The translations under genes and the position numbers were made by a program. From Candidatus Iainarchaeum sp. (GTDB lineage Archaea; Iainarchaeota; Iainarchaeia; Iainarchaeales; JAZDDZ01): DNA of 64,000 nucleotides. Of this stretch, positions 2,791 through 39,193 are shown one piece after another. Position 1 is the stretch's first letter, and the number at the start of each line of letters is the position of its first letter. Location of the stretch: positions 14,434-78,433 of the forward strand of contig JAZDDZ010000007.1 in NCBI GenBank assembly GCA_043809245.1, given 5' to 3'. The notes under the pieces are model-generated. The model ran no database searches and was not told where the DNA came from. It worked only from the letters and a program-made list of their open reading frames with translations.

Positions 2791-3425
2791 CTTTTGTGGC
2801 GGAACAATTCAATCCCACGAGAATGGAACTGATTAAGGCAAGGCAGCGGGCAAAGCTTGCGGCAAAAGGCCACCAGCTTCTCAAGCAAAAGCGTGATGCG
2901 CTTGTAATGGAGTTCTTCAAAATAATGTCAAAGGCAAAGGACTTGCGCGGGGAATTAGAGGAACAAATGGCGCGCTCTTATGCCTCTCTTGGAGTTGCAC
3001 AGGCATTCCATGGAATTTTTGAGGTAGAGCACGTTGCGCTTGCAACCCCGAACATTTCAGGCGTGAATTTGGAAGTGAAAAACGTGATGGGAGTCAAGAT
3101 TCCCTCGCTTGAAGAGGTGCAGGTGAAAAAAGGAGTGCTTGAAAGGGGCTATAGTTTTGTTGGCTCCAGCGCAAAAATAGACGAGGCAACTGAAGCGTTT
3201 GAGAATTCCTTGCATCTTGTATTGAAGCTCGCGGAAACCGAGAACGCAATGAAAAAACTGATTACTGAAATAGAGAAAACCAAGCGCAGAGTGAACGCGC
3301 TTGAATACGTTGTCATCCCACGCCTGAAATCGCAGGCAAAGGCAATCTCTTTCCGCCTTGACGAAATGGAAAGGGATAATTTTTTCACGCTGAAAATGAT
3401 GAAGGGAAAACTGAAGGCGAAATGA
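2787..3425 (+). CDS. atpD: A/V-type ATP synthase subunit D
   Basis: [35 protein letters not shown] plus a C-terminal coiled coil is typical of subunit D. The GTG start overlaps the atpB stop by 4 nt. Confidence 0.9.
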
Positions 3426-10450: not shown

Positions 10451-10474
10451 TTAGTGGCAAAAAAGGAAGTTCAG

Positions 10475-11650
10475 CTATTTTTTCAGGTTTTTTTTCAAAA
10501 TGCGCTTCACATTTGTAATTATATGTTCCACTTCCTGTTCTTTCAACGCAGGTGATAAAGGAAGCGAGATTGTCCTGTCTGAAATGAATTTGGCGTTTGG
10601 AAAATCATTTTCACCATAATTAAAGTTTTCTTTGTAGTACGGGTGCAAATGAAGTGAAATGAAATGAATGCCTGTGCCTATGCCCCTTTTATGAAGCATC
10701 TGCTGAAATTCGTCCCTTGAAATGCCCAGCATATCAATGTCAAGCAGAGGCGTGTATAGGTGAAATGAATGCTTGCTGTCCTCCTCGGGTTCTTTTGGCA
10801 AAATAAGCGGCAAACCGCTTAATTGCTCTTGATAGCTTTCCCAAATCTTCTTTCGGATTTTCCAGTTTTTTTCTATTCTTTTAAGCTGATGAATGCCCAA
10901 CGCCGCCTGGAGGTCAGTCATGTTGTATTTGAAGCCAGGGTAAAGAACTTGATAATGCTTAAACCCGTTCCACGAATATCTTTCCCAGGCATCGGCGCTT
11001 ATTCCATGCAGACTCATCACCCTGATTTTTTCAGCCCATTCGTCATTGTTGGTTGTAACCATGCCGCCTTCACCTGTAGTTATATTTTTCGTCACATAAA
11101 AGCTGAAACACGCAGAAGCCCCCACATTTCCAATTTTTTTCCCGTTTTTTGTTGACTCAATGGCATGCGCTGCATCACCGATGACGTTTAAGCCGTGCTT
11201 TTCTGCAATCTCAATAATCCGGTCCATCTCACAGGGCCTTCCAGCGAAGTGAACAGGCAGGATTGCCTTTGTTTTTTTTGTAATTGCCGATTCGATTGCG
11301 TCTTCGTCAATGTTCATTGAATCCTTATTCACATCAACAAAAATTGGTTTGGCTCCAACATGAACTATCGTGTTGGCTGTTGCAGCAAAAGTTATGGGGG
11401 AAGTTATTACTTCGTCACCATTTCCTACGCCCGCCGCAATAAGTGAAAGGTGCATTGCCGCAGTGCAGGAATTAACCGCAATAGCGTGCCTGCAGCCTAT
11501 ATATTCCCTGAATTTTTTCTCAAAGGCCTGCGTTTTGGGTCCAGTGCCAAGCCAGCCTGTCTTAAGGCTATCGACAACTTCTTCGATTTCGTCATCCTCG
11601 ATTTTGGGCTTGCCAAAAACAATGTAATCGCTTGCATTTTTGCTTATCAT
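10475..11650 (-). CDS. DegT/DnrJ/EryC1/StrS-family PLP-dependent sugar aminotransferase
   Basis: Motifs GTGPKTQAFEKKFREYIG, AVNSCTAAMHL, FSFYVTKNITTGEGG (PLP Lys region) and ISLPLSPAL. ATG at 11650; the ORF track uses TTG at 11653. Confidence 0.9.
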   Translation of the reverse strand: MISKNASDYIVFGKPKIEDDEIEEVVDSLKTGWLGTGPKTQAFEKKFREYIGCRHAIAVNSCTAAMHLSLIAAGVGNGDEVITSPITFAATANTIVHVGAKPIFVDVNKDSMNIDEDAIESAITKKTKAILPVHFAGRPCEMDRIIEIAEKHGLNVIGDAAHAIESTKNGKKIGNVGASACFSFYVTKNITTGEGGMVTTNNDEWAEKIRVMSLHGISADAWERYSWNGFKHYQVLYPGFKYNMTDLQAALGIHQLKRIEKNWKIRKKIWESYQEQLSGLPLILPKEPEEDSKHSFHLYTPLLDIDMLGISRDEFQQMLHKRGIGTGIHFISLHLHPYYKENFNYGENDFPNAKFISDRTISLPLSPALKEQEVEHIITNVKRILKKNLKK

Positions 11651-11727
11651 CAAACCACTGAATATGCATTAACTATAGTCAGAAAGCTATTTATTCAATT
11701 ATAGCAGATGCCCTAGGTTGATACGCC

Positions 11728-11752: not shown

Positions 11753-14431
11753 TTAAACCCTTATCGCTTTTCTTCTCGTGAGCTGTTTTATGAGGTAGTT
11801 GAGCAATAATAGGAGCACGACTTCAGCCAAGGCAATGATTATTGCAATGGTTGCATTTGAAAGCCTGTTGACCAAAAGGGGCAATGCGAAGAAGGCGATT
11901 GCAATGCTTAAGCGTGAAAGGAGCTCTTTTCTTTTCTCGGAAGTGCTTTTGGCTTTCCTGCGCATCATTGAAGCTGACTTGTTGTATGCGAGCACTGCCG
12001 CGGCAATGCTTAACGCGAGCAGCAGCAGCAAAAGCAGCGGCGTCTTTAGGATTGCCTCGCCGAAAATCGCAAGAATGCCTTTCCCAAGGAAGCCGAACAC
12101 TGCCTCAACTCCGCCCGAGACCTCTACTTTTGCTTCAAGCGCTTTCACGCCGTTCCTTGAAACGACAATCGTGTTCGTTCCCCCGCTTGAAAATTTGAGC
12201 AGAATATTTCCCTGCGCACTGGAAGTGAAATTAGAGGAAAGCCCGAAATCAGGGGTAACGGAAATATCCGCGTTTGGAACTGTTTTTCCGCTGGCTGTCT
12301 TAAGGGTCACGGCTGCCTCATCCCCTGCATTTGCTGTCTGCGGCAATCCCTCCAATACAAACCTTTGGATGAAGAAGGAGCCCGAGTAGGATTCAAATCC
12401 TGTCTTTGAGGCAAAAACCGAGTAGTTGCCTGGCTCGCTTAAAACGAATTCAACAGCGCCCGCGGCATCGGATGAAAAGTTAAGTGTTTTTCCCGAGGGA
12501 AAGACGGCTTCCACGAACGCCCCTTCAACAGGGTTTCCCCTTGAATCCATTACAATCATCTGCCTTGAATCCCCGATCAACTCGGTTTCATTGGCGTTCA
12601 GCCTGACTTCAAGGTAAGGCATTCTAACAGTGAAAGGCCTTTCAGCAGCGTTGTTTTCTTCGTTTGTTTCCTGAACAGAGTTATCGGGATCGGCAATTAT
12701 TTTAAGCGAGTAAACCCCCAATGGCTTGTCTGCCTTGAATGAAAAATCAATGAGCTTTATCTGGTCCTGGCTTAATGTTCCAATTGTCTTTGCATCCATT
12801 TCCTCGTCATCAAGGTTCAGGGCCATTTTAAAGAAAGCGGATTTGCTTAAGCCAACGTTTTTCAGCTGGACAACAACCGAAACGTCAACTATTTCCCCGA
12901 CAACCGCATTAGCCGGAGCGTCAACTGACTGGATCATTATGTCAGGCAGGAAAACGCAGTCCTCATCAACGTAACCGTCTCCATCGTCATCGATTTTGTT
13001 GTTGCATATTTCAGGGCAGCCTAAGACGCCCTTTGGAATTAACTTGAACCAACGGTAATGCGTGTTCTCCGAATCCGCGTTGCCCAGAACATCGGTTGCC
13101 GTGACCCTTGAAGAAAGCATTGCGAATTCGCCTTGAAGCGGGCCGAGCATGCCCTTATAGGTTCCATCCGCCTGTTTTTGCAGTGGAAGTGAATGGCTGT
13201 AATCGTTTTGCGTTAAGCCGTAAAAGAGCGTAACTGATGACACTGCGTTCAATGCATTAATGTCAGCCAAAACATCGATGAAGAAAGCGGTCTTGTCATC
13301 GTTTAGCCTTGCGCTCATTGAGGCGCTTTTAACTGTTATCTGCGCAGGGCCTTGTTCTGGCGGCGGAACAGGGGGAGTGTAAGGCAGTATTTGCTGCAGG
13401 AACTGGACATTGACAATGCTTCCATCATTGTCCATGAAATTGTAATAGGCATCGGCGTTCGCAGGAAGCGTTATCCCCAGATTCTGGCCTTTCACTACAT
13501 TTGTGAATGAATGCTGCTGGTAAGAGCCCCCCACAAGCACAAACACATCCAGTGAGCCGATGCTTGCGTCGTCATCGTATAGGTCGGAAACGAAAAGCGA
13601 GCGGTCTGTTGTGCGCATTGAAACAGTTATTGTTGAAAAGCCAGTGAAATCAAACAGGGCAATGTCTTTCTGCTCTCGCAGAACCTGCGATTCCGCGGGG
13701 GAAAGGCTTGCAGTTGAACCTGAAGCGCATTCTGTGAGGTCAGGAGTCAAAAGGCTGAAATAGTGAGGCAATAAAAGCACGGTTTCCTTCCTTCCGGTTA
13801 AGTCAGTTGCAGTGATTTTTCCGTCAAAAATTATTTCGTTGGTGAACGGGCCGAGGATTTCCTTGTAGGAGCCGTCAGGCTGCTTTGACATTTCAAATTG
13901 CTCGGAGAAATCCCCTTCCGCAAAGCCGAAGAAAAGCACGATGTTGGAGTAAGGGTGCAAGTTGTTTACGTCCACGGAAACGTTTACGTAAAAGGAACGC
14001 AAGTTGTCGGATACATCGGGTTCAACTGAAAACGAGTAAATCATTTTAGGCGGTGTCTCCGGAGGCGGGCAGTTAGGGCAGGGCTCTGGAGGCGCCTGAT
14101 AATCGGTGATGTAACGCATGTATTGAACGTTTTGAACCGTGCCATCGTTGTCCATGAAGTTATAGTACGCGCTTTCCCCCGCATTAATTGTTGCGCCTGA
14201 AAGGATTTGCCCTTCAATTACTCCTGAGTAGCTGTAGCGCTGCAGCCCTGCTGCCTTTGAAATGAATACATCCGCAAAAGCAATGCTGCCATCGTCGTCA
14301 AAAACATCTGATGCCAGGACTGAGCCGTCGGCTTGCTTTACTAAAATCAATTCCGAGTACTCGGCCGCCGCTGCGATTGAGGAAAGGAAAAGCATTGCGC
14401 AAAGCAAAAGCAGGATTTTTTTGCCCATCAT
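11753..14431 (-). CDS. Secreted surface protein (~892 aa) anchored by three C-terminal TM helices: duplicated 240-aa module, D-rich Cys motif, CARDB-like domain and two carboxypeptidase-regulatory-like domains
   Basis: Signal peptide MMGKKILLLLCAMLFLSSIAAAAE. Two paralogous modules, each ending YYNFMDNDG(T/S)..NVQ..., followed by a Pro-rich linker. Also CPEICNNKIDDDGDGYVDEDC; a CARDB-like end (DPDNSVQETNEENN); VMDSRGNPVEGAFVEAVFPSGK; and C-terminal helices (LLLLLLLALSIAAAVLAY, LSIAIAFFALPLLV, IAIIIALAEVVLLLLL). I prefer the start at 14431 because its ATG overlaps the giant gene's TGA. Confidence 0.8.
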   Translation of the reverse strand: MMGKKILLLLCAMLFLSSIAAAAEYSELILVKQADGSVLASDVFDDDGSIAFADVFISKAAGLQRYSYSGVIEGQILSGATINAGESAYYNFMDNDGTVQNVQYMRYITDYQAPPEPCPNCPPPETPPKMIYSFSVEPDVSDNLRSFYVNVSVDVNNLHPYSNIVLFFGFAEGDFSEQFEMSKQPDGSYKEILGPFTNEIIFDGKITATDLTGRKETVLLLPHYFSLLTPDLTECASGSTASLSPAESQVLREQKDIALFDFTGFSTITVSMRTTDRSLFVSDLYDDDASIGSLDVFVLVGGSYQQHSFTNVVKGQNLGITLPANADAYYNFMDNDGSIVNVQFLQQILPYTPPVPPPEQGPAQITVKSASMSARLNDDKTAFFIDVLADINALNAVSSVTLFYGLTQNDYSHSLPLQKQADGTYKGMLGPLQGEFAMLSSRVTATDVLGNADSENTHYRWFKLIPKGVLGCPEICNNKIDDDGDGYVDEDCVFLPDIMIQSVDAPANAVVGEIVDVSVVVQLKNVGLSKSAFFKMALNLDDEEMDAKTIGTLSQDQIKLIDFSFKADKPLGVYSLKIIADPDNSVQETNEENNAAERPFTVRMPYLEVRLNANETELIGDSRQMIVMDSRGNPVEGAFVEAVFPSGKTLNFSSDAAGAVEFVLSEPGNYSVFASKTGFESYSGSFFIQRFVLEGLPQTANAGDEAAVTLKTASGKTVPNADISVTPDFGLSSNFTSSAQGNILLKFSSGGTNTIVVSRNGVKALEAKVEVSGGVEAVFGFLGKGILAIFGEAILKTPLLLLLLLALSIAAAVLAYNKSASMMRRKAKSTSEKRKELLSRLSIAIAFFALPLLVNRLSNATIAIIIALAEVVLLLLLNYLIKQLTRRKAIRV

Positions 14432-26400: not shown

Positions 26401-29400
26401 AACCCAGTGGGAGCCCACATTGGTGTATGTAGAGCCGCTGCTTGCGAATATGAGCCCTAAATTAGTGCCGACTCCCCCTTTATCGTGGGCTGTGTACCCG
26501 CTGCCTTCGTCCAAGGGCCAGTAACCAATAAGGCTTGGGTTTGCAAGAGAATTCAGGTCAAAGTTCTGCACTAGGGAATTGGAGAACTGCCCTGGAGAAG
26601 AGGAATAGTAAATGCTTGCGTGGAGGTTTCCGCTGAAAACATTGAAGTCAGCGTCAGTCACATTGAAGTCTATGAGGAAATTGCTGTTGTATCTTGCGTT
26701 AATTGTTGTGTCCTGCAACAGGACATTGAAGTTTGCGTCGGGCGCAACAGGAGTTCCGATTACAGCGTGCATTGTATTGGTTGGCTCTGTTTTGCCTAAA
26801 TTGTCAATGCTGTAAAACTGGATTGCATAATTTCCGTCAGCGCTGAATGCAATTGCCGAATTGTAGTCAGCCCAGGAACCGTATGACACTGCGTTTGAGG
26901 CATCAGAGTCAAGCCTGTATTTTGTGGAAGCGCAGGCTGAATTGTTTTGCGAATAGATTTCCTCGCCTCCAAGCAAGTATGATGGGGGCGTGGCAATGTC
27001 TTTTTTTACGCTTAAATTGTCAAAGGAAGCGGCAACGCTGCCTGAATAAACCTGTGAAAACAAGCCAAAGTAAGGCGCACTCGCGGATAAAGGCGCTGAA
27101 TTAAGGGAAACATAGGAGCCTATTTGCGTCCAGTCAGTTCCGTTAAATGAGATAAGGTAAAGGTTATAGCCGCCCCTCCGTATAATTCTCAGCCACGCAG
27201 GCAGGGTCGTGGAGGCATAGCTTGGCATGCTTCCCACATAACACCCGTCAGGATAGCGCCTTACTACTTGGAAATTATCTCCTTCCCCTATAGCTTCCTC
27301 CCCACAGTATACGCTCCTACTTGCATACTTATACCTTCCAAAATAGTCTGCAGCTATACCGCTGGTGCCAACCGATAAATTGCCAACATATATGCCTGTA
27401 TGCGTGTCATTGTTAACAGTATAGCTGTTCAGCTTTGCAGTCAAAGCCCAGTCACCTGAATTGCCTATATTGAAAGCCAGAATCTCATAATCATTAGTGG
27501 AGTTAAACAACAGCCTTCCGCTTGTTTCCACAAGTATGTTTGCGTCACTGCCATTATTTGTTCTGAAACCCCTTGCTGGAAGCGTTTTAAGGCTGTTGTC
27601 GTTGAAGTTGTCCCCTAAGTAAAAAATGTCAGGGTAATTGTTCGGCGGCGACCCAGCGCTTGGGTTTCCGTAAAAAAGGAAGTAATTGTAGTCAATTGTT
27701 CCCGCAGAAATCGTGTTTTGCAGCTTGAATTGGATTACAGTATTTGTTGTATTGCAGCCGATTACTTCCCTGCTTAACTCTGTTGTGCCGTTATAGGCAA
27801 CCCTTAAGTCACTGCAGTTGCTTTTCATTTTTCCCGCGGCAATAAGCGCTGCAGTGTCAATTGCGTTGACGTCAAGGGTATACGTGTTGTTAAGCGTGGT
27901 TGCTGACGCGGAATTGTCAATTGTTATGATTTTCCTGTAAGCGTAATCCGAGTCAAGCCAGCCGCGCGGCGAAGAGCAGAAAAGGCTCGCGCTAAAGCCG
28001 CTTGGAATGAAACCGCTGTTTATGTCGCTTGAAGTAACAGGGCCAAGCGCGTTAACAAGGAATGAAACCATGCCAGTGCTTGAGGTGTTAAGCAGTGCAT
28101 CCCTGCACGCATAATAGCGGGTATAATTTCCGTCGGCAAGATTGCCTAAATCGCATGAGAATTGGCTGGCGCTTCGCGTGCAGGAATTGGGGAGAGAGGC
28201 AAATGAAAGGTTTGCTGTTCCCCAGCTGCAGGAAACACTCGCGGCATTAAAGTCAGTTATGTCAAGCACAATGCCTGTTGAAGAATCATTGGTTGAATCA
28301 AGGTATGGAGCGGTTGAATCTCCGCCAATGTTGTTGATTGCAATAACTGGAGCAGTGTTATCCAATTCAAAGAATGCATCAGAGGAATCAACTGCGTTAT
28401 TGTCCTGCGGGTCAAAGGCATTCAGGTCAATGAAGTAATTGCCGTCTGCCACGCCATTGATTGTTTTCCACAGGTAAACGCATTTTGTTGAATCAGAGAA
28501 ATCGCGGTCAGCGCACCATGAAATCCTGCTTGCCTCAGCTGCGCTTAAAGCCCTTCTGATGAAGAAGGGCTCGTCAATCGTGCCGGCAAAGCCCTTGCCA
28601 ATGTCTATTTCTTCGCTGTTGTTCATGTTTGCAGTGGAATTGTCTGTTCCAGTGCAGGCAAGTGCGCCGTCAACGTAAAGATAACAACTGTTAGTTGAAA
28701 CATTCCTAACGCCTATGATGTGGTGCCAGTGGTTGTCGGCAATGCGTGAGCCATAGCATACACAGGATAAGCCGTTCCAAAGATTGTTTCCGACAGAAAA
28801 TGTGGCTAGTCCATAAGGAACGCTAATAGCCCAGCCTGCAATGGGCAAAGCATAATAAGTAGAGTATTTGCTGATTAGGTCCCCTGACAAATCAGTTGTT
28901 TTGACCCACATTCCAACGCTGAAACTGTCAGCCAATTTAATGTCAAAGTCAGGGTCATCGCCTCTTGTGGCGTAAGAGTCAGGGCTGTCCGAAAAAGTTA
29001 TTGCCTTGTCAAAAACCCCTGAAACCCAGCTTACGGAGCCTGAGAGCGCTAGATTATTTGCAGCCGTGGTGTTTGCGTCGCGCAGTGTTGTTCCACTGCC
29101 TTCACCGAACTTCCACCAGGACTGGTAAGTGGCGGGCACAGTAAAAGCATTGGCAAGATTTACATTGTCAGCAATTTGGTTCTGGAAAGCGCCAGCTGCA
29201 CTGGAATAATAAATGTCTGCGTATAACACGCTGCTGTCTGAATCCAAAACATTGAAGTCAAGTAAATAGTTTCCGTCATTCGGGTAAGAGATTTGCTCTC
29301 CGCCATTCGGAAGCGCGAGCACAACTGTTGGAGCTGCACCGCTGTTGTTTATGCGGAAGTTCTGGTCAGAGGAATCAACCGCGTTATTGTCCTGAGGGTC

Positions 29401-32400: not shown

Positions 32401-34560
32401 TGAACCAGAGCAATCGTTTGCCATGCTCGCATAAGCCACATTGCTTGAATCCCATTTGCAGGAAACCCCATTGGCGTTCAAATCGGAAATTGAAAGGGCA
32501 AGGTTTGTGTTGGAATCAACTAGAGAATCAGTGTAAGGTGCAGTGCTGTCGCCGTCAAGGTTGTTAATTGAAACTACTGGCGCATTGTTGTCAAGCTGGA
32601 ATAAAGCGTTGGAGGAATCTGTTCCAATGTTCTGCATGCTGTCAAACAGGTTTATGTCAATGAAGTAATTGCCGTCGCCTAAGCCCATTAGGTTCCAGTC
32701 GTAATAGCATTCTGTTGATGCGGCGAAGCTGGTGTCGCGGCAGCTTGTAAGGTAAAGTGCCTGTATCTCCGAGGAAGTTAGTGCGGTTTTTGTGAAAAAG
32801 GGGTCGTCTATTAAGCCGTTGAAGTGCCCTCCGCAAGTTCCAAGCGAACAAGTTATACAAGCAGGGTAAGCTCCGATTGCCAATGGTTGAGTGTTATTCA
32901 TGTTTGCATTGCTGTTATCCGTTCCCTGCCCTTCTAATGCTCCGTCAACGTAAATATAGCATTTGTCGTCTGCAACGCTTCTTACACCTATTACATTGTG
33001 CCATTGGTTGTCGTTTAAATCCGTTGTGCCTGTTGCTTGGCAAAACTTTGTTCCGTCACCCCAATCGCCAATGTAAACGTTTGCCTTTGCATTTGGGGCC
33101 ACATTTATTCGGTAACCAATTACTGTGCAAATTGTTTTCGCAATTATTGCTTCCCCGCCCCCTCCAAGTGTTCGCACTTGTTCTATCGGGTGCTTTATCC
33201 ACGCTCCCATTGAAAAACTTGTCGTTAAAAGCACGTTAAAGTCTACATCGTCGTTTCTGTATAGGTATTGGTTTTGGTCTGGATTAAAGGATATTGCTGA
33301 ACCATATCTCCCGTTTGCAGTCCAAGTTGGCGCATAGTTTCCTGTGCCGAATGAAAGATTGTTGGCGCCCGATGTGCTGTCAAGAGTTGTGGTGCCTGAG
33401 CCCTCGGAAAAATGCCACAGGCCTTTCAGGAGACCTGAGCCGTAAACTGAAAGGTTTAAGTCGTCTGCAATTTGCTTTGTGAAGGCGCCTGCAGTTGAAG
33501 AATAATATATGTCTGCGTAAATGGAATTGCTGTCTGAATCCGTTACATTGAAGTCGATTGAAATGTTTTTGTCGCTGTTGTAAGAGAATGACTGGCCTCC
33601 ATTGGGGTAATTGACCAAAGCGGTTGGCGCGTTGCCTGAAACAGTGAAGTCAACTGAAGCGGTTGAAGAGGCGTTTGCAACCGCGTCCTGGCAGGCATAG
33701 TAAATTGTGTAAGAGCCTTTGAGCCCAGTGGCCTTGCACGATGACTTTCCTCCGGAAATTGCACTGCAGGAATTCGGAAGCGAAGCGTATGCAACGTTTG
33801 TTGTTCCCCACTTGCATGCCGCCGGGCTTCCCACGCCTGCATTTGAGTCGGAAACATTCAGTAGCACGTTTGTGCTGCCGTTGTCAATCGTGTCCTCATA
33901 TGGGCCTGTTGTGTCGCCTTCCACGCTGTTCAAGGAAACCGTTGGCGCGATTAAATCTGTTGTGTAATTGCCTGTAATTGGATTGTTTGTTGCTGCAAGC
34001 GTGTTGTCGAAAAGGAAAGCAAACCAATTGTGCGTTGCGTTGTCTGATTCTGAAGTGAAGGAACAGGAGGGGTTTGCGGCGTAACTGCTTTGGCTGACTG
34101 AGCAATAGGTGCCTGCGCCGCAGCCGGAAATTGTTGCGCTGTTTGTCTGGCAGACGAATAGCTTCAAGGGATTGCTTTCGGAATCCGTCGCGCTTGTGCA
34201 GATGTAAACAGTTGAGCCGCCCTTTATTGTTGTCGCGGCTGTGCCGCAGCCCGCAACTTTTCCATCGGAAGCTGAAGTGAATGTCGGAGCGTAAGTGCCG
34301 AAGTAAATTATGTCTTCAACTGTCTTGTCGCTTACTTCCGCTTCAACTGCAGGGAATAAAAGGGTTTCCTGCGCGGCGGAGAGATTGTCCTTGAAAACCG
34401 TTGAGTCAAGCTCTTCCTGCGTGAAGGCATTGCGCCAGTCAAGGAAAGAGAAGGCATCGGAGCCTTTTGAAAAATCACCGAATGCGTTAACAAGAAGGGA
34501 AAGGCATACAATGCAGAGAATTAACGCTAAAGCTAACCTGATTCTGCCGCTTTCATTCAT
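14428..34560 (-). CDS. Giant secreted multi-domain surface protein (6,710 aa), putative adhesin
   Basis: Single uninterrupted 20,133-nt ORF. N-terminal signal/anchor MNESGRIRLALALILCIVCLSLLVNAFG, with no other obvious TM segment. Mosaic of Ig-like modules, LamG-type jelly rolls, a DUF2341-like block, 21 Cys-pair repeats, Cys-rich knots and CARDB-like domains (see sub-features). N/S/T/D-rich, with many N-X-S/T sequons. Confidence 0.9.
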   Translation of the reverse strand: MNESGRIRLALALILCIVCLSLLVNAFGDFSKGSDAFSFLDWRNAFTQEELDSTVFKDNLSAAQETLLFPAVEAEVSDKTVEDIIYFGTYAPTFTSASDGKVAGCGTAATTIKGGSTVYICTSATDSESNPLKLFVCQTNSATISGCGAGTYCSVSQSSYAANPSCSFTSESDNATHNWFAFLFDNTLAATNNPITGNYTTDLIAPTVSLNSVEGDTTGPYEDTIDNGSTNVLLNVSDSNAGVGSPAACKWGTTNVAYASLPNSCSAISGGKSSCKATGLKGSYTIYYACQDAVANASSTASVDFTVSGNAPTALVNYPNGGQSFSYNSDKNISIDFNVTDSDSNSIYADIYYSSTAGAFTKQIADDLNLSVYGSGLLKGLWHFSEGSGTTTLDSTSGANNLSFGTGNYAPTWTANGRYGSAISFNPDQNQYLYRNDDVDFNVLLTTSFSMGAWIKHPIEQVRTLGGGGEAIIAKTICTVIGYRINVAPNAKANVYIGDWGDGTKFCQATGTTDLNDNQWHNVIGVRSVADDKCYIYVDGALEGQGTDNSNANMNNTQPLAIGAYPACITCSLGTCGGHFNGLIDDPFFTKTALTSSEIQALYLTSCRDTSFAASTECYYDWNLMGLGDGNYFIDINLFDSMQNIGTDSSNALFQLDNNAPVVSINNLDGDSTAPYTDSLVDSNTNLALSISDLNANGVSCKWDSSNVAYASMANDCSGSTGLKTCSFGNLSSGAYDRYYACKDLGLNTSATASISFQVLSTQPTYATLFSPLGYERYSYNRDGNISIDFNVSDADSTDLNVSIYYSMSPAAYGTKLLDANLGILSDASLLLWWPIDENNGSTVNDLSGNGGNGTTYGGMSWVSGKFGPGLQAATNKYASGPTSLALGTSATISMWATPSMMLRKWVSGAEDKGLSLTTTSATCYLATASSGDSISCTRTFDANKWYMVSCTLDGSDRKIFVNGGECNSASASGDVNDSSGALYLGYDPTGGAYSTGKADDLRIFSRALSADEIMQLYKISCTNNSFASSTKCWYNWNLSAVPDGNFFIDLNVSDGENTPATDSSDYNFLVHNFAPTISVSSLANDASAPWEDTLKDFDTNAILDVNDFELAGVKCWWSSDSQMASPTECAKNSNLYACDFGYLMNNDYNRFYVCGDAMDNNSAITTLSFTVNVANTAPDANVNAPNGGETISYAKDGNYAIDFNVMDADNDWLYADIYYSDSQGAFTTQIVDDLNLNALGQCADTNFLDSTDCNYGWTMLSSLGDGNYFIDINVFDPSNAATADSSDAFFTVDNNAPILSVVSLAGDIEAPYLDSVSDNDSNLLLSVSDFNLAGVSCKWDSTNVAYASMANDCSAIDGNQITCAFGSVAAGTYDYYYSCSDNALNASTAEAISFTVQGAAPTIRVNSPNGGDTNSYVRDKNAVLDFNISDADSNQLFADIYYSSSAGAFTTQIVNDWNLSVVGRCASSNFSVSRRCTYDWNIIAVSDGNYFLDINVFDPQDNNSVDSSDAYFSLDNSAPVLSVVSLAGDTEEPYLDSVSDNDTNLLLSISDFNSNGVSCKWDSTNVAYASMANACGAISGSQVTCDFTNLTGGSYTYYYSCRDNALNASTAAAVSFTVQGAAPTALVNSPNGNQTWTYFLQGNKTLDFNVSDADSNQLFADIYYSSTPGAFENQILNDYNLSVPGRCASSNFSVSRRCTYDWNYSALPDGNYFIDINVFDPQDNNAVDSSDQNFRINNSGAAPTVVLALPNGGEQISYPNDGNYLLDFNVLDSDSSVLYADIYYSSAAGAFQNQIADNVNLANAFTVPATYQSWWKFGEGSGTTLRDANTTAANNLALSGSVSWVSGVFDKAITFSDSPDSYATRGDDPDFDIKLADSFSVGMWVKTTDLSGDLISKYSTYYALPIAGWAISVPYGLATFSVGNNLWNGLSCVCYGSRIADNHWHHIIGVRNVSTNSCYLYVDGALACTGTDNSTANMNNSEEIDIGKGFAGTIDEPFFIRRALSAAEASRISWCADRDFSDSTKCVYLWKTINGVADGNYFIDLNAFDPQDNNAVDSSDAFFELDNTAPVIAINNIGGDSTAPYLDSTNDSSTGIVLDITDFNAASVSCSWGTANLSFASLPNSCTRSASQFSCDLGNLADGNYTRYYACRDALLNTSSTGMVSFLVNALGPVTSSDINSGFIPSGFSASLFCSSPRGWLDSDYAYRKIITIDNSASATTLNNTYTLDVNAIDTAALIAAGKMKSNCSDLRVAYNGTTELSREVIGCNTTNTVIQFKLQNTISAGTIDYNYFLFYGNPSAGSPPNNYPDIFYLGDNFNDNSLKTLPARGFRTNNGSDANILVETSGRLLFNSTNDYEILAFNIGNSGDWALTAKLNSYTVNNDTHTGIYVGNLSVGTSGIAADYFGRYKYASRSVYCGEEAIGEGDNFQVVRRYPDGCYVGSMPSYASTTLPAWLRIIRRGGYNLYLISFNGTDWTQIGSYVSLNSAPLSASAPYFGLFSQVYSGSVAASFDNLSVKKDIATPPSYLLGGEEIYSQNNSACASTKYRLDSDASNAVSYGSWADYNSAIAFSADGNYAIQFYSIDNLGKTEPTNTMHAVIGTPVAPDANFNVLLQDTTINARYNSNFLIDFNVTDADFNVFSGNLHASIYYSSSPGQFSNSLVQNFDLNSLANPSLIGYWPLDEGSGYTAHDKGGVGTNLGLIFASSGSTYTNVGSHWVAGKMGQWAVDLNTIEKLRIANDFTFSTLTNALTLSMWVYPKDSGSAQTWALSDWLGVLTRNSGGTVSYSRSVESTPNYLTTITSTSNFTYNVWNHLSVTCSQENSAISLYVNGYADSSATLPASVPCIYPNYTNTTYFGMRMTNTGTLPNYPGMLSIDEIKLYNRALSKGELLREKLFAFPQPCSDVNFSNQADCGYDWNLSAIATGEYYIDINIFDDQGKSKTISSPAKLIISNFADTTGPTGSILINSGDIGTTSTTLDLSLTYSDDASGVANMSFSCNGTAWTAWESVSSTKSFSILSADNSAVGCDAEASSGYGSKTVYARFQDAEDNNGSSAYDTIFYDDAGAPTGNSVNISTFSGRNGYTNNITPPMSTTSTLAYYMKFSCDNATYSSNASYASAYSAFDVTLIANGCSSSDSNRTVYAIYSDSIGNSASAVQISPANSLYLDRTIPIVSSFTITDSSGYTNDTSPQFDITATDTGSSGLDSMKFSCNGKDWSNWFNYSATLNASTDDFNIGDYNLGCPGYESGLVTVYAKARDKAFNESEIISDTTYYDINPPNASVSIASNAPVLTDANLLLVISAYDDGSGVKDFALSCDNSSYSSWYDYNSYYVDENRAALIDFNALSGAGCSNNDGAIIIYAKARDNLNNTVTVYTTATLDLPIGPSEVDIDIIDNSGYTNNANPQMRIQAGASLDVNAIRFSCDNSTWGAEAVMQSDYNGFNITSGAGCSASEGAKTIYAQFYSPSLGSWAYTASDSTTYDATVPSGSVAINAAAYYVTGYTSDTTPLLNTTASDALSGLHEMSFSCDANNFTGWVVYKSQYFDFNLLDDSQGGCSNTDGNKTVYVKFKDKAGNQILANSSNDTVLTLQGDKTDFGGLIFFDDGDSFVIDTTNPYDVNVELDVAQWSGTLGYTNDDAPPLVVNGKDLIAGLHDMAFSCNGVDFSPKGQYTKYYSNFDVKPNSTQYGCTTRDGQRKVYIRITDRAGNAVVGSADTGVWWLDTENPTLSSVLVDSSMNNTTADSAPAISISAYDLVSGLYDLNMSCGSSGPWRTYSYSSIISDFNILSPVYGCTNGEGGRRVYAVVRDKAYNQSEVQFDDIIFDTSATTTPSVGIDGYAKNSWVRGATVTLTCTATASDVASYDFDYTLSDDGTGWTELATGDTDGSYAWVTPANDLNFAIRCRYKDNAANYSVYDYAYYLGLDKTAPTTTDDIPSGWQTSITVTLTCSDANGPSGCQRTYYKINSGGWVFYSSPFVLNLEGINTVYYYSLDNAGNTESLKSKTASIDAIQPTLNSITISDIGGYTNSSKPAIFVSATGDASYIKFNCNNSSTWQAFSYKISQGSIASFDVSQAGYGCLSGANGSVNVYAKLVDLAGNESAVVSDSTYYDTAAPTGTIIIENGAASTNDSTPLLSLSASDAASGVTEMQFSCNASSWSGWVPYATSYSAFNIYTTSYGCSLSDGLRRIYVRFRDKVGNVGPSASDLILVDLGPPVNNSISVTGFTGTPRYTSSTTPPLAISSNGASYMRFSCSSNPSSFSGNTPYSSSYSSFDIATGAGCSNTDGAKQVYAIFEDDTNNSSAPVSTYANGGYFYLDRSKPALNSLSITKTSGYTSDTTPSATLSASDATSGVHEARFSCNGTSWGAWASYSSSMVPNINLRYGFNGCLNSVDGNVTLYAQLRDKAYNISNEIRSDSVYVDTTGPTATISIEGGAETTSDYTPALSITGNDGTGIGVSQMQFSCNGSTWNAAWVNFSAAYSDFNIINSALGGCTYAAGTKYVFVRLRDTLGNIGEAASDSIILNWTPITGGNSITIIDNFGYTNNATPQMNISTNVSGTTLTHMRFSCDNSAWAAEVPYNTTYSSFNIASGSNGCSTANGSKTVYVQFKDSVGTWGYVASDSTTYDTVPPTGNSIAVNYTGATGYVNTALPTFALSSTGANRVRLSCNGITYTNPAIYSETYNSFNIKPQATAYGCPTSDGNRTVYAIYLDYAGNSAAAVNTASFVLDTAPPTSLALSTTYSGLDGYINTATPALALSATDGLSGLSGMQFSCNASDWTGWEAFASTKSNFNLESGSYGCGSTDGSTTVYARARDRAYNVSASAARSLIVDTQAPQNPSIFIERWTGESGYTFDDAPPLVMAATDATSGVYEMQYSCDNSDWTYPWIVYSYRYSTFDARPAAQQYGCTTGQGQKIIYVRFRDRAYNVSGEANTGYWILDQNAPLNLSISIEVFTGLGGYTNDSTPEFLLTADDTISGLSKARFSCNGFGFTDWFAFDGSDTYNSSTNDFDVKSGFNGCAAEDGNKTIYVEVMDKAGVFSVVSNSGIGADSFYVDTVVPSVSIDAPGENQFVSGNVLLYNTISDSGSGISSAWLTINSAAGPEGTTAGYPFDVNLSSAQSWDADWNSDSPVAEDLYALSVYAVDRAGNTSTAQRSFAVSRAAPTIQFLVPNPNNRYYSGSIDYNVYFQHFLLDDANVQVKNNSDGNSVISTQSASGLAATATTSKYLGTTANLSAYSDGTIFWVEAQAQDTAANHSSATTYFIVDNSNPTGSIAVLDTNGYTRSTNPDLNLSATDSTSSVESMRFSCDNSNWTGWAAFSSRYSGLSLIDSTAGCTSSDGSKTVYVQFRDSAGNISSSYSDTTTLDRAAPSGTIQIEGGSQTTNNDTPTLTLSAADNGGIGLKDMRFSCDSYTWAQYVNYATTYSDFNIFDTTIGGCIAGQGFREVYVQFRDSLDNLSHFFFDTIYVDMNIDSAAELEDCPDFIESENVSLAWAGASDSNSLAYFKIFISPNGQAWQELHQTSTAGETTYDFNFLAVDLNGVCGDGKCNPGENCPNDSLNCPIGTACTSGCRPQTGTTTNYSCGDGICSPGEYCPTDTLNGCAAGFFCRSGCQPDQNTIINDPTNPCGNGTCSTGEYCIYDNSYCYDAYGSDWVCKGGAGVDGCVQTTTVNYVCGDGTCDIGENCITDNSSCEVGNACINGCVPTNDTSALSGGKSFNAFQGSLDGFMYYRVETYDSVGNKANSTTKRCTIDKESPFQVPYTNGRAIVRSTSYGDYNLFIPSTGMASGADTNISIDYNSSPPTFQRGRLYAAFNFDAPEGTLTFLSDKPAKLTLTYSEGELSCAPTCSTADEQKLKIYRWDVDSNDWIAMQSTVDTVNNKITADMNHFSPWGYGEDTNAPTLASATISDSTCNQAQGCTSDSTPTITLVASADASDMNISCSASGPWLNQAYTSSVTNFDIASGSYGCGSTDGAATVYVKVSDDSGNWSSALSDSTYYDSTAPTLSITFPSDGASQSSSTVEIVYTGSDSGAGIKNYWVKVDSSAWINNSTNTSYSFDLQELGEHAYSVIATDNLDQNSSTESVTITVTSGGGPTGGEVCGNGSCTTSETRANCPADCWVCGDSFCDSPYESSANCAGDCPAQSCSDGTAYNACSAAKPLFCSNGSLVNDCSDCGCPNSGDTCNTDGSCTSVQADLTATLTSSGIAQNNSKVSFAAAVYNLGSTSATSFRVSLREGSPSGREIASRTVNSLAGSDGTSLLFEFTYDANDAAMASWQGKTISFYEVVDPDNSVAESNEANNNASTTVYFAGPELCGNLFDDNLNGLVDEGCIPNLFFKRIDVGKPVFVAGDLVRVDFNVLISSEDFDSNNFYVSFFENTLASQGIAVTFIGSLKKDKDVIMLFYYEEPVAQVITINTAGAVKQPAATALFQSEGTASTFYVFVDSTEVVTESNEQDNIMEVDIGSLITDLSFESSSVPATVFQGQRIDVNAVIANNSQADSGAFAVSVLLDKQTVASGNVPSLAPGAKANVHFSVNSGSISGAHDINILIDPSNLIAESDETNNNKFHLVFVEAGTELIYSYAKFLQQEQIVAGFWKPLADSSAYAFSVQGNSLAVSREISETQYNPDYSFSSNYLNSSLSTNAPYTLNISKNAVSFGSHDFSIIDKNMSAAYSQINGTSVSWWLDPVFLKRMHYERINNLSMIWWQQFLGGGA
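14880..16000 (-). other. Three CARDB-like domains, with an intervening D-rich Cys motif, near the giant protein's C-terminus
   Basis: DLTATLTSS...AAAVYNLGSTSATSFRVSL...VDPDNSVAESNEANNN; ELCGNLFDDNLNGLVDEGC; VFVDSTEVVTESNEQDN; DLSFESSSVPATVFQGQRIDVNAVIANNSQADSGAFAVSVLLD...IDPSNLIAESDETNNN. Confidence 0.65.
16005..16290 (-). other. Second Cys-rich knot region of the giant protein
   Basis: EVCGNGSCTTSETRANCPADCWVCGDSFCDSPYESSANCAGDCPAQSCSDGTAYNACSAAKPLFCSNGSLVNDCSDCGCPNSGDTCNTDGSC. Confidence 0.7.
17470..17950 (-). repeat. Four tandem Cys-rich ~35-45-aa units in the giant protein
   Basis: VCGDGKCNPGENCPNDSLNCPIGTACTSGC / SCGDGICSPGEYCPTDTLNGCAAGFFCRSGC / PCGNGTCSTGEYCIYDNSYCYDAYGSDWVCKGGAGVDGC / VCGDGTCDIGENCITDNSSCEVGNACINGC. 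Confidence 0.75.
18165..25700 (-). repeat. Array of 20 tandem ~104-108-aa Cys-pair beta-sandwich-like repeats (8 + 10 + 2, separated by other Ig-like domains); a 21st copy lies at ~16560-16870
   Basis: Consensus by eye: ..GYTN...P.L.(L/I)SA.D..SG(V/L)..M.FSC(D/N)...W..W..Y...Y..FN.....GC...DG.KTVYV.F.D.AGN.S.....D...(Y/V)D...P. The 'FSC' and 'GC' cysteines are kept in every copy. Interruptions at ~22545-23100 and ~18790-19420. Confidence 0.75.
25880..26535 (-). other. LamG-type jelly roll 4, nested in B-domain 7
   Basis: LIGYWPLDEGSGYTAHDKGGVGTNLGL...HWVAGKMGQWAVDL...LTLSMWVYP...NVWNHLSVTC...ISLYVNGY...GMLSIDEIKLYNRALSKGELL. Confidence 0.7.
26990..27970 (-). other. DUF2341-like domain (~27640-27970) followed by a second concanavalin-like jelly roll (~26990-27640)
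   Basis: WLDSDYAYRKIITIDNSASATTLNNTYTLDVNAIDTAALIAAGKMKSNCSDLRVAYNG...YNYFLFYGN matches the DUF2341 pattern. Next comes DNFNDNSL...GDWALTAKL...WLRIIRRGGYNLYLISFNGTDWTQIG...FDNLSV. Confidence 0.6.
28515..29130 (-). other. LamG-type jelly roll 3, nested in B-domain 6
   Basis: QSWWKFGEGSGTTLRDANTTAANNLALSGSVSWVSGVFDKAITF...FSVGMWVK...NHWHHIIGVRN...CYLYVDGAL...GTIDEPFFIRRALSAAEASRI. Confidence 0.7.
31505..32080 (-). other. LamG-type jelly roll 2, nested in B-domain 2
   Basis: LLLWWPIDENNGSTVNDLSGNGGNGTTYGGMSWVSGKFGPGLQ...ISMWA...NKWYMVSCTLDG..RKIFVNGG...ADDLRIFSRALSADEIMQLY. Confidence 0.7.
32750..33440 (-). other. LamG-type (concanavalin-like) jelly roll 1, nested in B-domain 1 of the giant protein
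   Basis: LLKGLWHFSEGSGTTTLDSTSGANNLSF...GRYGSAISF...FSMGAWIK...NQWHNVIGV...CYIYVDGAL...GLIDDPFFTKTALTSSEIQALY is the LamG_3-style pattern. Confidence 0.7.
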
Positions 34561-34618: not shown

Positions 34619-34660
34619 CTTAATATATCTCTTAATATATCATCTCTAATATTTATAAAT
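34619..34660 (-). promoter_or_regulatory. AT-rich tandem 12-nt repeat plus TATA-like element upstream of the giant gene
   Basis: The plus strand reads CTTAATATATCT (34619-34630), CTTAATATATCA (34631-34642), then TCTCTAATATTTATAAATTTT. On the coding strand this places TTTATAAATATT and 2x GATATATTAAG 60-100 nt upstream of the ATG at 34560. Confidence 0.35.
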
Positions 34661-39192: not shown

Positions 39193-39193
39193 G

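What the first reader, a model, noticed from the sequence alone, without database searches (positions are those of the whole stretch)
14428..34560. 20.1-kb single ORF encoding a 6,710-aa secreted mosaic surface protein
One uninterrupted reverse-strand ORF takes up 31% of the window. It has a single N-terminal signal/anchor (MNESGRIRLALALILCIVCLSLLVNAFG) and no other obvious hydrophobic helix, so about 6,680 aa would be extracellular. The architecture is a mosaic: 6+7 Ig-like modules (four with nested LamG jelly rolls), a DUF2341-like block plus another jelly roll, 21 Cys-pair ~105-aa repeats, two Cys-rich knots, three CARDB-like domains and a unique ~150-aa C-terminus. N-X-S/T sequons occur throughout. 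Genes of this size are rare in archaea, and in small-genome symbionts a gene this large is a major investment. The domain types (lectin-like LamG, CARDB, Ig-like) point to carbohydrate or cell-surface binding, so this is a candidate host-attachment or cell-cell contact fibre.
Basis: partly seen in the sequence, partly recalled or inferred. Interest (0 to 1): 0.85.

Follow-up and report, generated by a model that had tools for sequence, protein, structure and literature searches.

The report
Giant archaeal surface fibre protein
The 20-kb reading frame is real and encodes a 6,710-residue exported protein of about 50 tandem beta-sandwich modules in a DPANN (Iainarchaeota-type) archaeon; it is an unusually large member of a kind of giant lectin-bearing archaeal surface protein that is already recognised but has never been studied experimentally.

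Summary
Window 14428-34560 (-) is one 6,710-codon ORF (chance about 1e-144) with a single hydrophobic segment at the N-terminus. Only the 'DUF2341-like block plus jelly roll' found no support. The DNA repeats are diverged (82% identity or less), so a collapsed assembly is unlikely.

The 150-residue C-terminus is not unique. It closes a conserved C-terminal module of about 1,100 residues, shared by orthologues of 2,931 to more than 5,365 residues in Diapherotrites/Iainarchaeota genomes, including the complete 1.24-Mb AR10 genome. In 8 of 8 loci a roughly 900-residue CARDB protein with three C-terminal membrane helices follows directly, overlapping the giant's stop codon (ATGA) in the window.

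Best reading: a Sec-exported, glycosylated, non-enzymatic fibre of roughly 200 nm. Its conserved C-terminal base is probably held by the membrane-anchored partner, and its variable distal part carries the lectin domains.

Host attachment is plausible but untested, and Iainarchaeota have been proposed to be free-living. Archaeal proteins of 5,000 residues or more with Laminin_G_3 are already a described class. Verdict: new member of a known kind, moderate interest.

The parts
14428..34560 (-). Giant ORF, 6,710 aa plus stop
   Evidence: the identical protein is already in a public collection (P0004, NCBI, contig of 78,726 bp)
34651..34660 (-). TATA-box-like ATTTATAAAT about 95 nt upstream of the ATG (candidate archaeal promoter; inferred)
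   Evidence: read directly from the sequence
34477..34560 (-). Sec-type signal peptide, aa 1-28: n-region with R6/R8, 16-residue h-region, VNA/FG c-region
   Evidence: complete orthologues have the same single N-terminal hydrophobic segment
33949..34476 (-). N-terminal region, aa 29-204, including an 8-Cys domain (aa 85-204). This would be the distal tip if the C-terminus is the base.
   Evidence: no Pfam family; the same domain type is visible in the AR10 orthologue (read from the translation) and is hit by the in-house HMM in P0019
28048..33948 (-). Alternating modA (x6) and modB (x6) Ig-like modules, aa 205-2171. Three modB copies are split by nested Laminin_G_3 domains (aa 380-590, 831-996, 1814-2000). 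The 666-nt double module at about 29366-30628 is the most recent duplication (79-82% nt identity).
26959..28047 (-).
25708..26958 (-). OmpL47-like unit (aa 2535-2605), then the seventh modB (aa 2606-2951) carrying the fourth nested Laminin_G_3 (aa 2678-2882; 59 bits, E 6.8e-16)
18160..25701 (-). Extender region, aa 2954-5467. It holds 20 Cys-pair repeats of about 105 aa in three blocks, interrupted by two OmpL47-type domains (aa 3827-4003) and two Big_7/Big_3_2 Ig domains (aa 5049-5258).
   Evidence: AF2 model pLDDT 96.6; Ig/PKD/FN3-like fold with SiiE and adhesin-extender matches
14431..17946 (-). Conserved C-terminal module, aa 5539-6710: Cys knot 1 (4 x 6-Cys units), 'mid' domain (aa 5702-5890), 21st Cys-pair repeat plus Big_13, Cys knot 2, three CARDB-like domains (aa 6195-6561), C-terminal domain (aa 6562-6710)
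   Evidence: 39-45% identity to orthologues over about 1,090 aa
14449..14523 (-). Family-hallmark C-terminal motif WLDPVFLKRMHYERINNLSMIWWQQ (aa 6680-6704)
11753..14431 (-). Partner gene, 892 aa. Its ATG overlaps the giant's TGA (ATGA). Order: signal peptide, two modules of unknown type, Cys/Asp-rich motif, CARDB, CarboxypepD_reg domains, three C-terminal membrane helices (aa 786-884).
   Evidence: directly downstream of the giant gene in 8 of 8 related loci

Best explanation
The gene encodes a giant cell-surface fibre of adhesin type.

Shown:
- It is an intact gene with one N-terminal Sec-type signal and no other hydrophobic helix.
- About 50 in-line beta-sandwich-size modules, four nested ConA-like lectin (Laminin_G_3) domains and two Cys-rich knots make up the chain. 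No catalytic domain is detectable.
- The composition is typical of an exported archaeal glycoprotein: 13% Ser, 9% Thr, 8.5% Asn, net charge about -390, sequons enriched, 162 Cys with an invariant pair in each of 21 repeats.
- Orthologues keep only the last 1,100 or so residues and a tightly linked downstream gene for a protein of about 900 residues with a signal peptide, CARDB and three C-terminal membrane helices. Everything N-terminal to that module differs in domain content and length between lineages.

Inferred mechanism:
- The chain is exported by Sec, N-glycosylated (glycosylation genes flank the locus) and stabilised by disulfides.
- Its conserved C-terminal module, ending in the HYERINNLSxIWW motif, is the base. 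The base is held at the cell by the co-translated membrane-anchored partner, an arrangement like SlaA on SlaB.
- The repeats act as a stiff spacer about 200 nm long. This assumes about 4 nm per Ig-like domain, by analogy with SiiE, from my own knowledge.
- The variable distal part, with the lectin domains and the 8-Cys tip, binds glycans on another surface.
- Whether that surface is a host cell, a neighbouring cell, polymer or mineral is not determined.
For: - Real coding.
- Architecture.
- Repeat unit: confident Ig/PKD/FN3-like sandwich (pLDDT 96.6). Its matches include SiiE BIg domains, a large-adhesin extender and the GhpA neck.
- No enzyme or toxin family in any Pfam or NCBIfam scan.
- Composition and sequons.
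- Orthologues with a conserved C-terminal module and variable N-terminal parts.
- Complete orthologues (2,931, 4,797, 5,073 and 5,169 aa) all have a single N-terminal hydrophobic segment and no other.
- The partner follows in 8 of 8 loci, and its three C-terminal membrane helices are conserved in the seven aligned partners. The start/stop overlap is shown in the window and suggested by the ORF coordinates of L006 and L005.
- Sugar-modifying genes lie downstream on the same strand, and a glycosyltransferase cluster lies nearby.
- DNA repeats are old and diverged, so the assembly is credible.
- Literature: archaeal proteins of 5,000 aa or more nearly all carry Laminin_G_3 (PMC11573180); LamG and CARDB surface proteins are linked to host interaction in cultured DPANN (PMC5498576, PMC6642349).
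Against: - There is no expression, localisation or binding evidence.
- The giant-partner contact rests only on conserved linkage. The AF2 model of the C-terminal domain was useless (pLDDT 39.5), and no complex could be modelled.
- An uncleaved N-terminal signal-anchor would reverse the polarity, putting the N-terminus at the membrane and the CARDB end distal. That cannot be excluded from sequence.
- About 360 residues (aa 2172-2534) and the 'mid' domain have no assigned fold and could hide an activity.
- The lineage may be free-living (PMC6349945, PMC10936187), which weakens host attachment as the specific target.
Confidence: 0.6

Rival explanations
1. The molecule is the same, but its job is not host attachment. 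It could be a protective or matrix-forming coat, a biofilm scaffold, or a substrate- or particle-binding fibre of a free-living cell, comparable to halomucin or to bacterial biofilm adhesins. In that case the lectin domains bind the cell's own glycans, extracellular polymer or detritus.
For: Iainarchaeota are proposed to be possibly free-living (PMC6349945, PMC10936187). The window encodes glycolytic enzymes and many biosynthetic genes. Fold matches include the biofilm scaffold RbmA and carbohydrate-binding modules. Large glycosylation clusters flank the locus.
Against: The N-terminal part varies strongly between orthologues while the base is conserved. That pattern is more typical of partner-specific recognition than of a generic coat. 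In cultured DPANN, LamG-rich giant proteins go with host dependence (PMC6642349).
Confidence: 0.25
2. It is a structural envelope component: the outer subunit of a two-protein S-layer-like wall, with the 892-aa protein as the membrane stalk. That would be a true SlaA/SlaB equivalent forming a lattice rather than a fibre.
For: The arrangement is two genes and translationally coupled. The large subunit has no anchor and the smaller one has C-terminal membrane helices. The pair is conserved across the lineage (8 of 8 loci).
Against: As I recall, lattice-forming S-layer proteins are roughly 40-200 kDa, whereas this one is about 700 kDa. Its length varies from 2,931 to 6,710 aa among orthologues, which is hard to reconcile with a conserved lattice. 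A chain of about 50 tandem sandwich domains is the design of rods, not tiles.
Confidence: 0.1
3. It is a contact-dependent attack or uptake device like the nanohaloarchaeal SPEARE proteins, or a toxin carrier.
For: It shares giant size, LamG and adhesion domains and a DPANN background with SPEARE (PMC6642349).
Against: There is no protease, nuclease, pore-forming or toxin family in any scan. There is no C-terminal membrane helix and no cytoplasmic part.
Confidence: 0.03
4. It is an assembly artefact, meaning a repeat-driven chimera or collapse, or a decaying pseudogene.
For: The gene is repeat-rich. Every orthologue on a short metagenomic contig that was checked upstream runs open into the contig end. 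One MAG copy has a frameshift before the C-terminal motif.
Against: The ORF has 6,710 stop-free codons (about 1e-144). No repeat pair is more than 82% identical over 250 nt or more, and there are no tandem-repeat calls. Module order is regular and every repeat keeps its Cys pair. Complete orthologues of 4,797-5,169 aa exist on other contigs, and a copy of at least 5,365 aa sits in a closed genome.
Confidence: 0.02

Closest known systems
Archaeal 'huge proteins' (5,000 aa or more) dominated by Laminin_G_3, with Big_13/Big_3_3 and CarboxypepD_reg architectures (survey in PMC11573180)
   Same: Archaeal, longer than 5,000 aa, multiple Laminin_G_3 domains, Big_13/Big_3_3 Ig-like domains, function unknown.
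   Different: That class is defined only by size and Pfam content. This work adds a specific orthologous family (Diapherotrites/Iainarchaeota) with a conserved C-terminal module of about 1,100 aa, a terminal HYERINNLSxIWW motif and an obligatory membrane-anchored partner gene.
SPEARE proteins of Nanohaloarchaeota (up to 8,553 aa; PMC6642349)
   Same: A giant DPANN protein, mostly extracytoplasmic, with LamG and other adhesion domains; proposed to mediate cell-cell interaction.
   Different: SPEARE has serine-protease, toxin-like and restriction-endonuclease domains, and its own membrane helix with a cytoplasmic tail. None of these is present here.
Giant bacterial fibre adhesins built from tandem BIg domains (SiiE of Salmonella, RTX adhesins such as LapA and MpIBP, GhpA)
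   Same: Tens of tandem Ig-like extender domains, with ligand-binding domains confined to one part and an anchoring module at the other end. The repeat unit matches SiiE BIg and adhesin extender structures by fold, with a weak sequence match to 2yn3.
   Different: Those proteins are exported by type 1 secretion with C-terminal RTX signals and are retained in an outer membrane. This one has an N-terminal Sec signal, disulfide-paired repeats, no RTX repeats, and an archaeal single-membrane setting with a separate anchor protein.
SlaA/SlaB S-layer pair of Sulfolobales (functional analogy only)
   Same: A large exported subunit without an anchor, encoded next to a smaller subunit with a C-terminal membrane anchor.
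   Different: No sequence relationship was detected. The size and the tandem-domain rod design argue for a fibre rather than a lattice, and the partner has three helices rather than one (the single SlaB helix is from my own knowledge).
OmpL47-type beta-barrel domain (NCBIfam NF047446) and Big_13 (PF19077)
   Same: The repeat-rich middle third scores 153 bits against a cut-off of 40 for NF047446. An HMM seeded on the clearest OmpL47-type unit recruits the Cys-pair repeats.
   Different: Individual Cys-pair repeats get no Pfam hit and carry an invariant Cys pair. The same repeat occurs in 99 of the 153 scanned sequences from the library search (150 best hits plus three cluster members) in up to 39 copies, including in bacteria. 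It is therefore a widespread but poorly modelled subfamily.

Membership tests
Archaeal huge proteins with Laminin_G_3 (PMC11573180) | Encoded by an archaeon | tested here: met
   A-type ATPase A subunit with intein in the window. Orthologues with synteny lie in 'Candidatus Iainarchaeum archaeon', 'Candidatus Diapherotrites archaeon' and archaeon GW2011_AR10. GAPDH is 62% identical to that of a syntenic relative.
Archaeal huge proteins with Laminin_G_3 (PMC11573180) | Length of 5,000 aa or more | tested here: met
   6,710 aa
Archaeal huge proteins with Laminin_G_3 (PMC11573180) | Laminin_G_3 (PF13385) present | tested here: met
   146.7 bits for the first 2,500 aa. The isolated second and fourth inserts score 57.8 and 59.2 bits against a cut-off of 27.6.
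SPEARE (PMC6642349) | Serine protease domain | tested here: not met
   No peptidase family in the Pfam or NCBIfam scans of the whole protein
SPEARE (PMC6642349) | Type III restriction-enzyme-like cytoplasmic domain behind a membrane helix near the C-terminus | tested here: not met
   No such family. The only hydrophobic segment is aa 3-32.
SPEARE (PMC6642349) | At least one laminin-G domain plus adhesion domains in the extracytoplasmic part | tested here: met
Type 1-secreted RTX/BIg giant adhesins (SiiE, LapA type) | Tandem BIg-type extender domains | tested here: met
   Fold matches to SiiE (2yn3/2yn5) and the adhesin extender 6xi3; Big_13 and Big_3_3 hits
Type 1-secreted RTX/BIg giant adhesins (SiiE, LapA type) | C-terminal RTX repeats / type 1 secretion signal and no N-terminal Sec signal | tested here: not met
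   No RTX (HemolysinCabind) hit in the C-terminal third; a Sec-type N-terminal signal is present
   Zero Pfam families for aa 2172-2605 at E <= 1, and for aa 2195-2335 and 2325-2535 at E <= 10. HMMER's filters drop most matches above about 0.1, so very weak similarity is not excluded.
CARDB (PF07705) | Score above the gathering cut-off | tested here: met
   97.8 bits against 22.7 with two stretches; PDB CARDB structures 2l0d and 2kut are hit
OmpL47-type domain (NF047446) | Score above the curated cut-off | tested here: met
   153.4 and 63.3 bits against a cut-off of 40. Most single Cys-pair repeats are only linked through an iterated in-house HMM.
PGF-CTERM / archaeosortase substrates | C-terminal PGF motif, membrane helix and basic tail | tested here: not met
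   No C-terminal hydrophobic segment. The sequence ends ...NNLSMIWWQQFLGGGA.
SlaA/SlaB-type two-subunit envelope | Anchor-less large subunit encoded next to a membrane-anchored small subunit | tested here: met
   This is arrangement only, an analogy and not homology.
SlaA/SlaB-type two-subunit envelope | Sequence or fold homology to SlaA/SlaB, and lattice formation | not testable with these tools
   No library hit pointed to S-layer families. Lattice formation needs microscopy.

The most novel reading that the evidence does not exclude
The conserved C-terminal module (Cys knots, 'mid' domain, three CARDB domains and a 150-aa domain ending in HYERINNLSxIWW) and the translationally coupled three-helix CARDB partner together form a previously undescribed archaeal system for mounting very long fibres on a cell that has no outer membrane. 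The system would be lineage-wide in Iainarchaeota. Interchangeable, fast-evolving lectin 'heads' of 2-5.5 thousand residues would be grafted onto the same base to match different partners.
Probability: 0.3. Interest if true: 0.6.

Novelty: new member of a known kind. Interest (0 to 1): 0.42.

Why it matters
How DPANN archaea touch other cells or surfaces is largely unknown outside a few cultured Nanoarchaeota, Nanohaloarchaeota and Micrarchaeota. For Iainarchaeota it is not even settled whether they need a host.

A gene that takes about 1.6% of a genome of around 1.2 Mb, and that is kept with its partner across the lineage, must matter to the cell. The conserved base with a variable head gives concrete handles for experiments:
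- an antigen for labelling cells in enrichments;
- a peptide set for metaproteomics;
- lectin domains for glycan-array tests;
- a defined pair, the C-terminal module and the partner's ectodomain, for interaction tests.

If the fibre bridges to another organism, it would be direct evidence on the free-living versus host-dependent question for this phylum. The practical lesson is that these genes break short-read assemblies at the repeats, so their size and frequency in archaeal MAGs are underestimated.

Tried and rejected
- **The search for homologous proteins on long queries:** The three searches that ran returned only 2, 1 and 2 hits. The search with the partner alignment was wasted because the word prefilter saturated.
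- **Exact look-ups of the partner protein:** not on record with either start. A 34-mer from the window is not in the GTDB representative genomes. PGK found no close relative there, so the window's own genome could not be named.
- **AF2 of the C-terminal domain:** with 4 sequences, pLDDT was 39.5 and the model was unusable, so no fold search was made.
- **DUF2341 / jelly-roll label for aa 2172-2534:** no support from Pfam, NCBIfam or PDB sequence searches.
- **Diversity-generating retroelement targeting the 3' end:** no template/variable repeat pair in the window, and all repeats are internal to the gene. I did not scan for a reverse transcriptase, so this is a weak exclusion.
- **tRNA/Rfam scan:** nothing in the window.
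- **Walking upstream in AR10 to reach the N-terminus of its orthologue:** the second scan returned the same fixed 8-kb block. Only a lower bound of 5,365 aa was obtained.
- **Data access:** metagenome loci L003-L009 were not exported to the Python sandbox and were handled through tool references instead.
- **Readings rejected:** SPEARE-type, RTX-adhesin membership, PGF-CTERM sorting, assembly artefact (see the membership tests and rival explanations).


Full report
**1. The observation**

The ORF listing gives one ORF at 14428..34560 on the minus strand, 6,710 aa with an ATG start. Translation shows no internal stop and the window contains no N. The five other frames of the same stretch hold 271-408 stops each, with longest open runs of 129-197 codons. 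From the base composition of the coding strand, 6,710 stop-free codons have a probability of about 1e-144. The ORF is therefore real coding sequence and takes 31.5% of the window.

A 19-residue hydropathy scan finds one hydrophobic segment, aa 3-32. It has an Arg-containing n-region, a 16-residue core and a VNA/FG small-residue c-region, which is a Sec-type signal. The protein is very acidic (D+E 684, K+R 294) and rich in Ser, Thr, Asn, Asp and Tyr compared with 21 other proteins of the window. It has 162 Cys and 158 N-X-S/T sequons, against 120 +/- 9.4 in shuffles.

**2. Architecture**

Pfam finds Laminin_G_3, Big_3_3, Big_13 and CARDB. NCBIfam finds the OmpL47-type domain.

- **modA:** six modules of about 100 aa.
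- **modB:** seven modules of about 113 aa. Four are split at the same point by inserts of about 200 aa. All four inserts match Laminin_G_3 above the curated cut-off, two of them only when scanned in isolation.
- **Cys-pair repeat:** 21 full copies in blocks of 8, 10, 2 and 1. The copies are 30-47% identical to one another and both Cys are invariant in 21 of 21.
- **Between the blocks:** two OmpL47-type domains (aa 3827-4003) and two Big_7/Big_3_2 domains (aa 5049-5258).
- **Cys-rich knots:** four 32-residue 6-Cys units (aa 5539-5701) and a second Cys cluster (aa 6097-6186).
- **C-terminal end:** three CARDB-like domains (aa 6195-6561), the middle one divergent, then a last stretch of 150 aa with no library match.

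One item did not check out. For aa 2172-2534, the 'DUF2341-like block plus another jelly roll', Pfam returned nothing at E <= 1 or E <= 10, and NCBIfam and PDB sequence searches also returned nothing.

**3. Is the assembly credible?**

Tandem Repeats Finder reports nothing in the gene. The most similar DNA repeats are the 666-nt modA+modB double module at 79-82% identity over 100-300 nt, and the Cys-pair repeats are 60-85% identical over about 50 nt. Repeats this diverged do not collapse in short-read assembly. Together with the regular module order and the intact Cys pairs, a chimera is unlikely. Only long reads can prove this.

The identical 6,710-aa protein is already present in a public collection (NCBI source, contig of 78,726 bp).

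**4. The repeat unit**

AlphaFold2, using the 21 copies as the alignment, gives a confident model (pLDDT 96.6). Foldseek against the PDB returns generic Ig/PKD/FN3-like sandwiches with TM-scores of about 0.55-0.66. Among them are the BIg domains of the giant adhesin SiiE, the extender of a large adhesion protein (6xi3), the neck of the grappling-hook protein GhpA, the biofilm scaffold RbmA, and spacer modules of glycoside hydrolases. By sequence the profile has no significant PDB match, only a weak SiiE hit.

An HMM seeded on the clearest OmpL47-type unit recruits the Cys-pair repeats, so they are a divergent, disulfide-bearing branch of that domain type. The exhaustive library search returned its 150 best hits. 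I scanned those together with three cluster members, 153 sequences in all, and 99 of them contain this repeat, in up to 39 copies. One is a Riflebacteria protein. The repeat is therefore a widespread extender module without a good public model.

**5. Relatives and lineage**

The C-terminal 1,090 aa or so has clear orthologues.

| Source | Identity or length | Completeness |
|---|---|---|
| P0001/L001, JGI metagenome | 39% identity | ORF open to the contig end |
| L002, 'Candidatus Iainarchaeum archaeon' MAG | 45% identity | cut at the contig start |
| L003-L006, L008 | 33-42% identity | L006 and L003 open to the start of the sequence held; L004 and L005 start at or near a contig end, not checked further |
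| P0156/P0006, 'Candidatus Diapherotrites archaeon' | 4,797 / 4,814 aa | complete (the NCBI record splits it into two proteins) |
| P0024 | 5,073 aa | complete |
| P0011 | 2,931 aa | complete |
| P0051 | 5,169 aa | complete, more diverged |

L003 is CP010424.1, 'archaeon GW2011_AR10 chromosome, complete genome', 1,241,428 bp. Its orthologue is open for at least 5,365 codons, and I could not reach its start.

All complete orthologues have one N-terminal hydrophobic segment and no other. Most end in the motif [LM]HYERINNL[ST]x[IV]WW; in P0024 and P0051 it is recognisably diverged.

Upstream of the conserved module the domain content differs.
- AR10 has FN3, Laminin_G_3, modA-like and 8-Cys domains.
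- P0156 has FN3 but no LamG, modA or modB.
- None approaches 21 Cys-pair repeats.

The window's protein is the longest of the family found.

The window itself is archaeal. It carries an A-type ATPase A subunit with a LAGLIDADG intein and archaeal-type pilus ATPase and platform genes. It shares gene order with the relatives (giant, partner, GAPDH, cupin-type GPI) and its GAPDH is 62% identical to that of L001. I could not name the window's own genome.

**6. The partner gene**

The giant's TGA overlaps the ATG of the next gene (ATGA). That gene encodes 892 aa. In order it has a signal peptide, two N-terminal modules of unknown type, a Cys/Asp-rich motif, CARDB, CarboxypepD_reg domains, and three hydrophobic helices at aa 786-884. 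The loop after the first helix and the tail are rich in Lys/Arg, which fits an outside-N, inside-C topology.

An orthologue of about 880-960 aa lies immediately downstream of the giant gene in all eight loci where the giant's 3' end is present. The three helices are conserved in the seven aligned partners.

The next genes on the same strand are a DegT-type aminotransferase and a hexapeptide acyltransferase. A polytopic membrane protein with no family and a radical-SAM/SPASM protein lie just upstream. A cluster of GT2, GT4 and DegT genes lies 9 kb further on.

**7. How it most likely works**

*Shown.* The protein is exported, has no anchor of its own and has no detectable enzyme domain. It is a chain of about 50 in-line sandwich-size modules with four lectin-type domains confined to the N-terminal 43%. 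It has a conserved C-terminal module and an obligatory membrane-anchored neighbour.

*Inferred.*
- It is exported by Sec, N-glycosylated and stabilised by disulfides.
- The conserved C-terminal module is the cell-proximal base and is held by the partner, as SlaA is held by SlaB. This is analogy, not homology.
- The Cys-pair and Ig-like arrays form a spacer of roughly 175-225 nm. That figure assumes about 4 nm per domain, by analogy with SiiE (my own knowledge), and is comparable to the size of a DPANN cell.
- The variable lectin-bearing distal part binds glycans on another surface.

The pattern of a conserved base and a variable head is what one expects if the base serves mounting and the head serves partner-specific recognition.

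*Weak points.* There is no direct evidence for the giant-partner contact, and the AF2 model of the C-terminal domain failed (pLDDT 39.5). An uncleaved signal-anchor would invert the polarity. Two regions are unassigned.

**8. Rivals**

- **Same fibre, other role.** It could serve as matrix, coat or substrate adhesion in a free-living cell. This is a serious alternative, because Iainarchaeota are the DPANN lineage repeatedly suggested to be capable of independent life (PMC6349945, PMC10936187).
- **True S-layer lattice.** This is unlikely, given the size and the length variation among orthologues.
- **SPEARE-like attack device.** It fails on its defining domains.
- **Artefact or pseudogene.** This is very unlikely (sections 1 and 3).

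**9. Comparison with what is known, and novelty**

A survey of UniProt found that archaeal proteins of 5,000 aa or more are few and that Laminin_G_3 is present in almost all of them. Big_13/Big_3_3 and CarboxypepD_reg architectures come next, and the function is 'not understood' (PMC11573180). SPEARE proteins (up to 8,553 aa) and halomucin (about 9,000 aa) are larger (PMC6642349). LamG- and CARDB-containing surface proteins have been proposed as host-interaction factors in Micrarchaeota (PMC5498576).

The finding is therefore a new, very large member of a recognised but uncharacterised kind, not a new kind. What this analysis adds is a defined orthologous family in Diapherotrites/Iainarchaeota. 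The family has a conserved C-terminal module, a terminal motif and a coupled three-helix partner. I did not find this pairing described in the papers I read.

**10. Verdict**

Novelty: new member of a known kind. Interest is moderate at 0.42. The gene is impressive and useful as an experimental handle, but a specialist in DPANN genomics would not be very surprised by it.

Noticed in passing
window 115-2790 (+): The A-type ATP synthase subunit A is interrupted by an intein with a LAGLIDADG homing-endonuclease domain (Intein_splicing plus LAGLIDADG_3 between the two halves of ATP-synt_ab).
   Followed up: no
window 34704-36320 (-): Directly upstream of the giant gene lies a 538-aa protein with about 11 hydrophobic helices, a soluble C-terminal part and no Pfam or NCBIfam family. 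An HGDEYD motif sits after the first helix. It may be a GT-C-type glycosyltransferase acting on the giant glycoprotein, but this is a guess.
   Followed up: partly
window 34619-34660 (-): Between the TATA-like ATTTATAAAT and the giant's ATG there is an imperfect tandem, AGAGATGATATATTAAG / AGAGATATATTAAG. It could be a regulatory site.
   Followed up: no
window 36352-37380 (-): A radical-SAM/SPASM protein is encoded two genes upstream of the giant gene on the same strand. SPASM enzymes often modify peptides or proteins. No link to the Cys-rich giant was tested.
   Followed up: no
window 37451-39937 (+) and 49268-50239 (+): Bacterial-type fatty-acid-pathway enzymes occur in an archaeal window: two FabH-like ketoacyl synthases, an enoyl-CoA hydratase and a FabG-like short-chain dehydrogenase. 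Similar genes have been reported in other DPANN MAGs (PMC10936187).
   Followed up: no
window 43286-49240 (-), and 9089-11653: There is a dense glycosylation cluster: three GT2, one GT4, two DegT-type aminotransferases, a hexapeptide acyltransferase and a FemAB-like protein. This fits a heavily glycosylated envelope.
   Followed up: partly
window 54494-63539 (+): A second large surface protein (914 aa, six LVIVD repeats plus a VWA domain) is followed by two genes with no family, an archaeal type IV pilus-type ATPase (T2SSE) and a T2SSF platform protein. This may be a pilus-plus-adhesin locus.
   Followed up: no
L002 about 3000-3230 (JAFCCJ010000029.1): In the 'Candidatus Iainarchaeum archaeon' MAG, the last 55 or so codons of the orthologue, including the MHYxRIxNL motif, lie in a different frame from the rest. 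This is a frameshift, either an assembly error or a real lesion.
   Followed up: partly
window 29366-30628 (-): Two adjacent 666-nt modA+modB double modules are 79-82% identical at the DNA level, far closer than any other repeat pair in the gene. This marks the most recent internal duplication.
   Followed up: partly
window 15500-15600 (-), about aa 6310-6330, and partner aa 470-492: Both the giant (ELCGNLFDDNLNGLVDEGC) and its partner (CPEICNNKIDDDGDGYVDEDC) carry the same short Cys/Asp-rich motif next to a CARDB domain. It may bind a metal or form a shared interface. Pfam hit the MopE-type metal-binding motif only in a distant relative (P0103), not in these two proteins.
   Followed up: no
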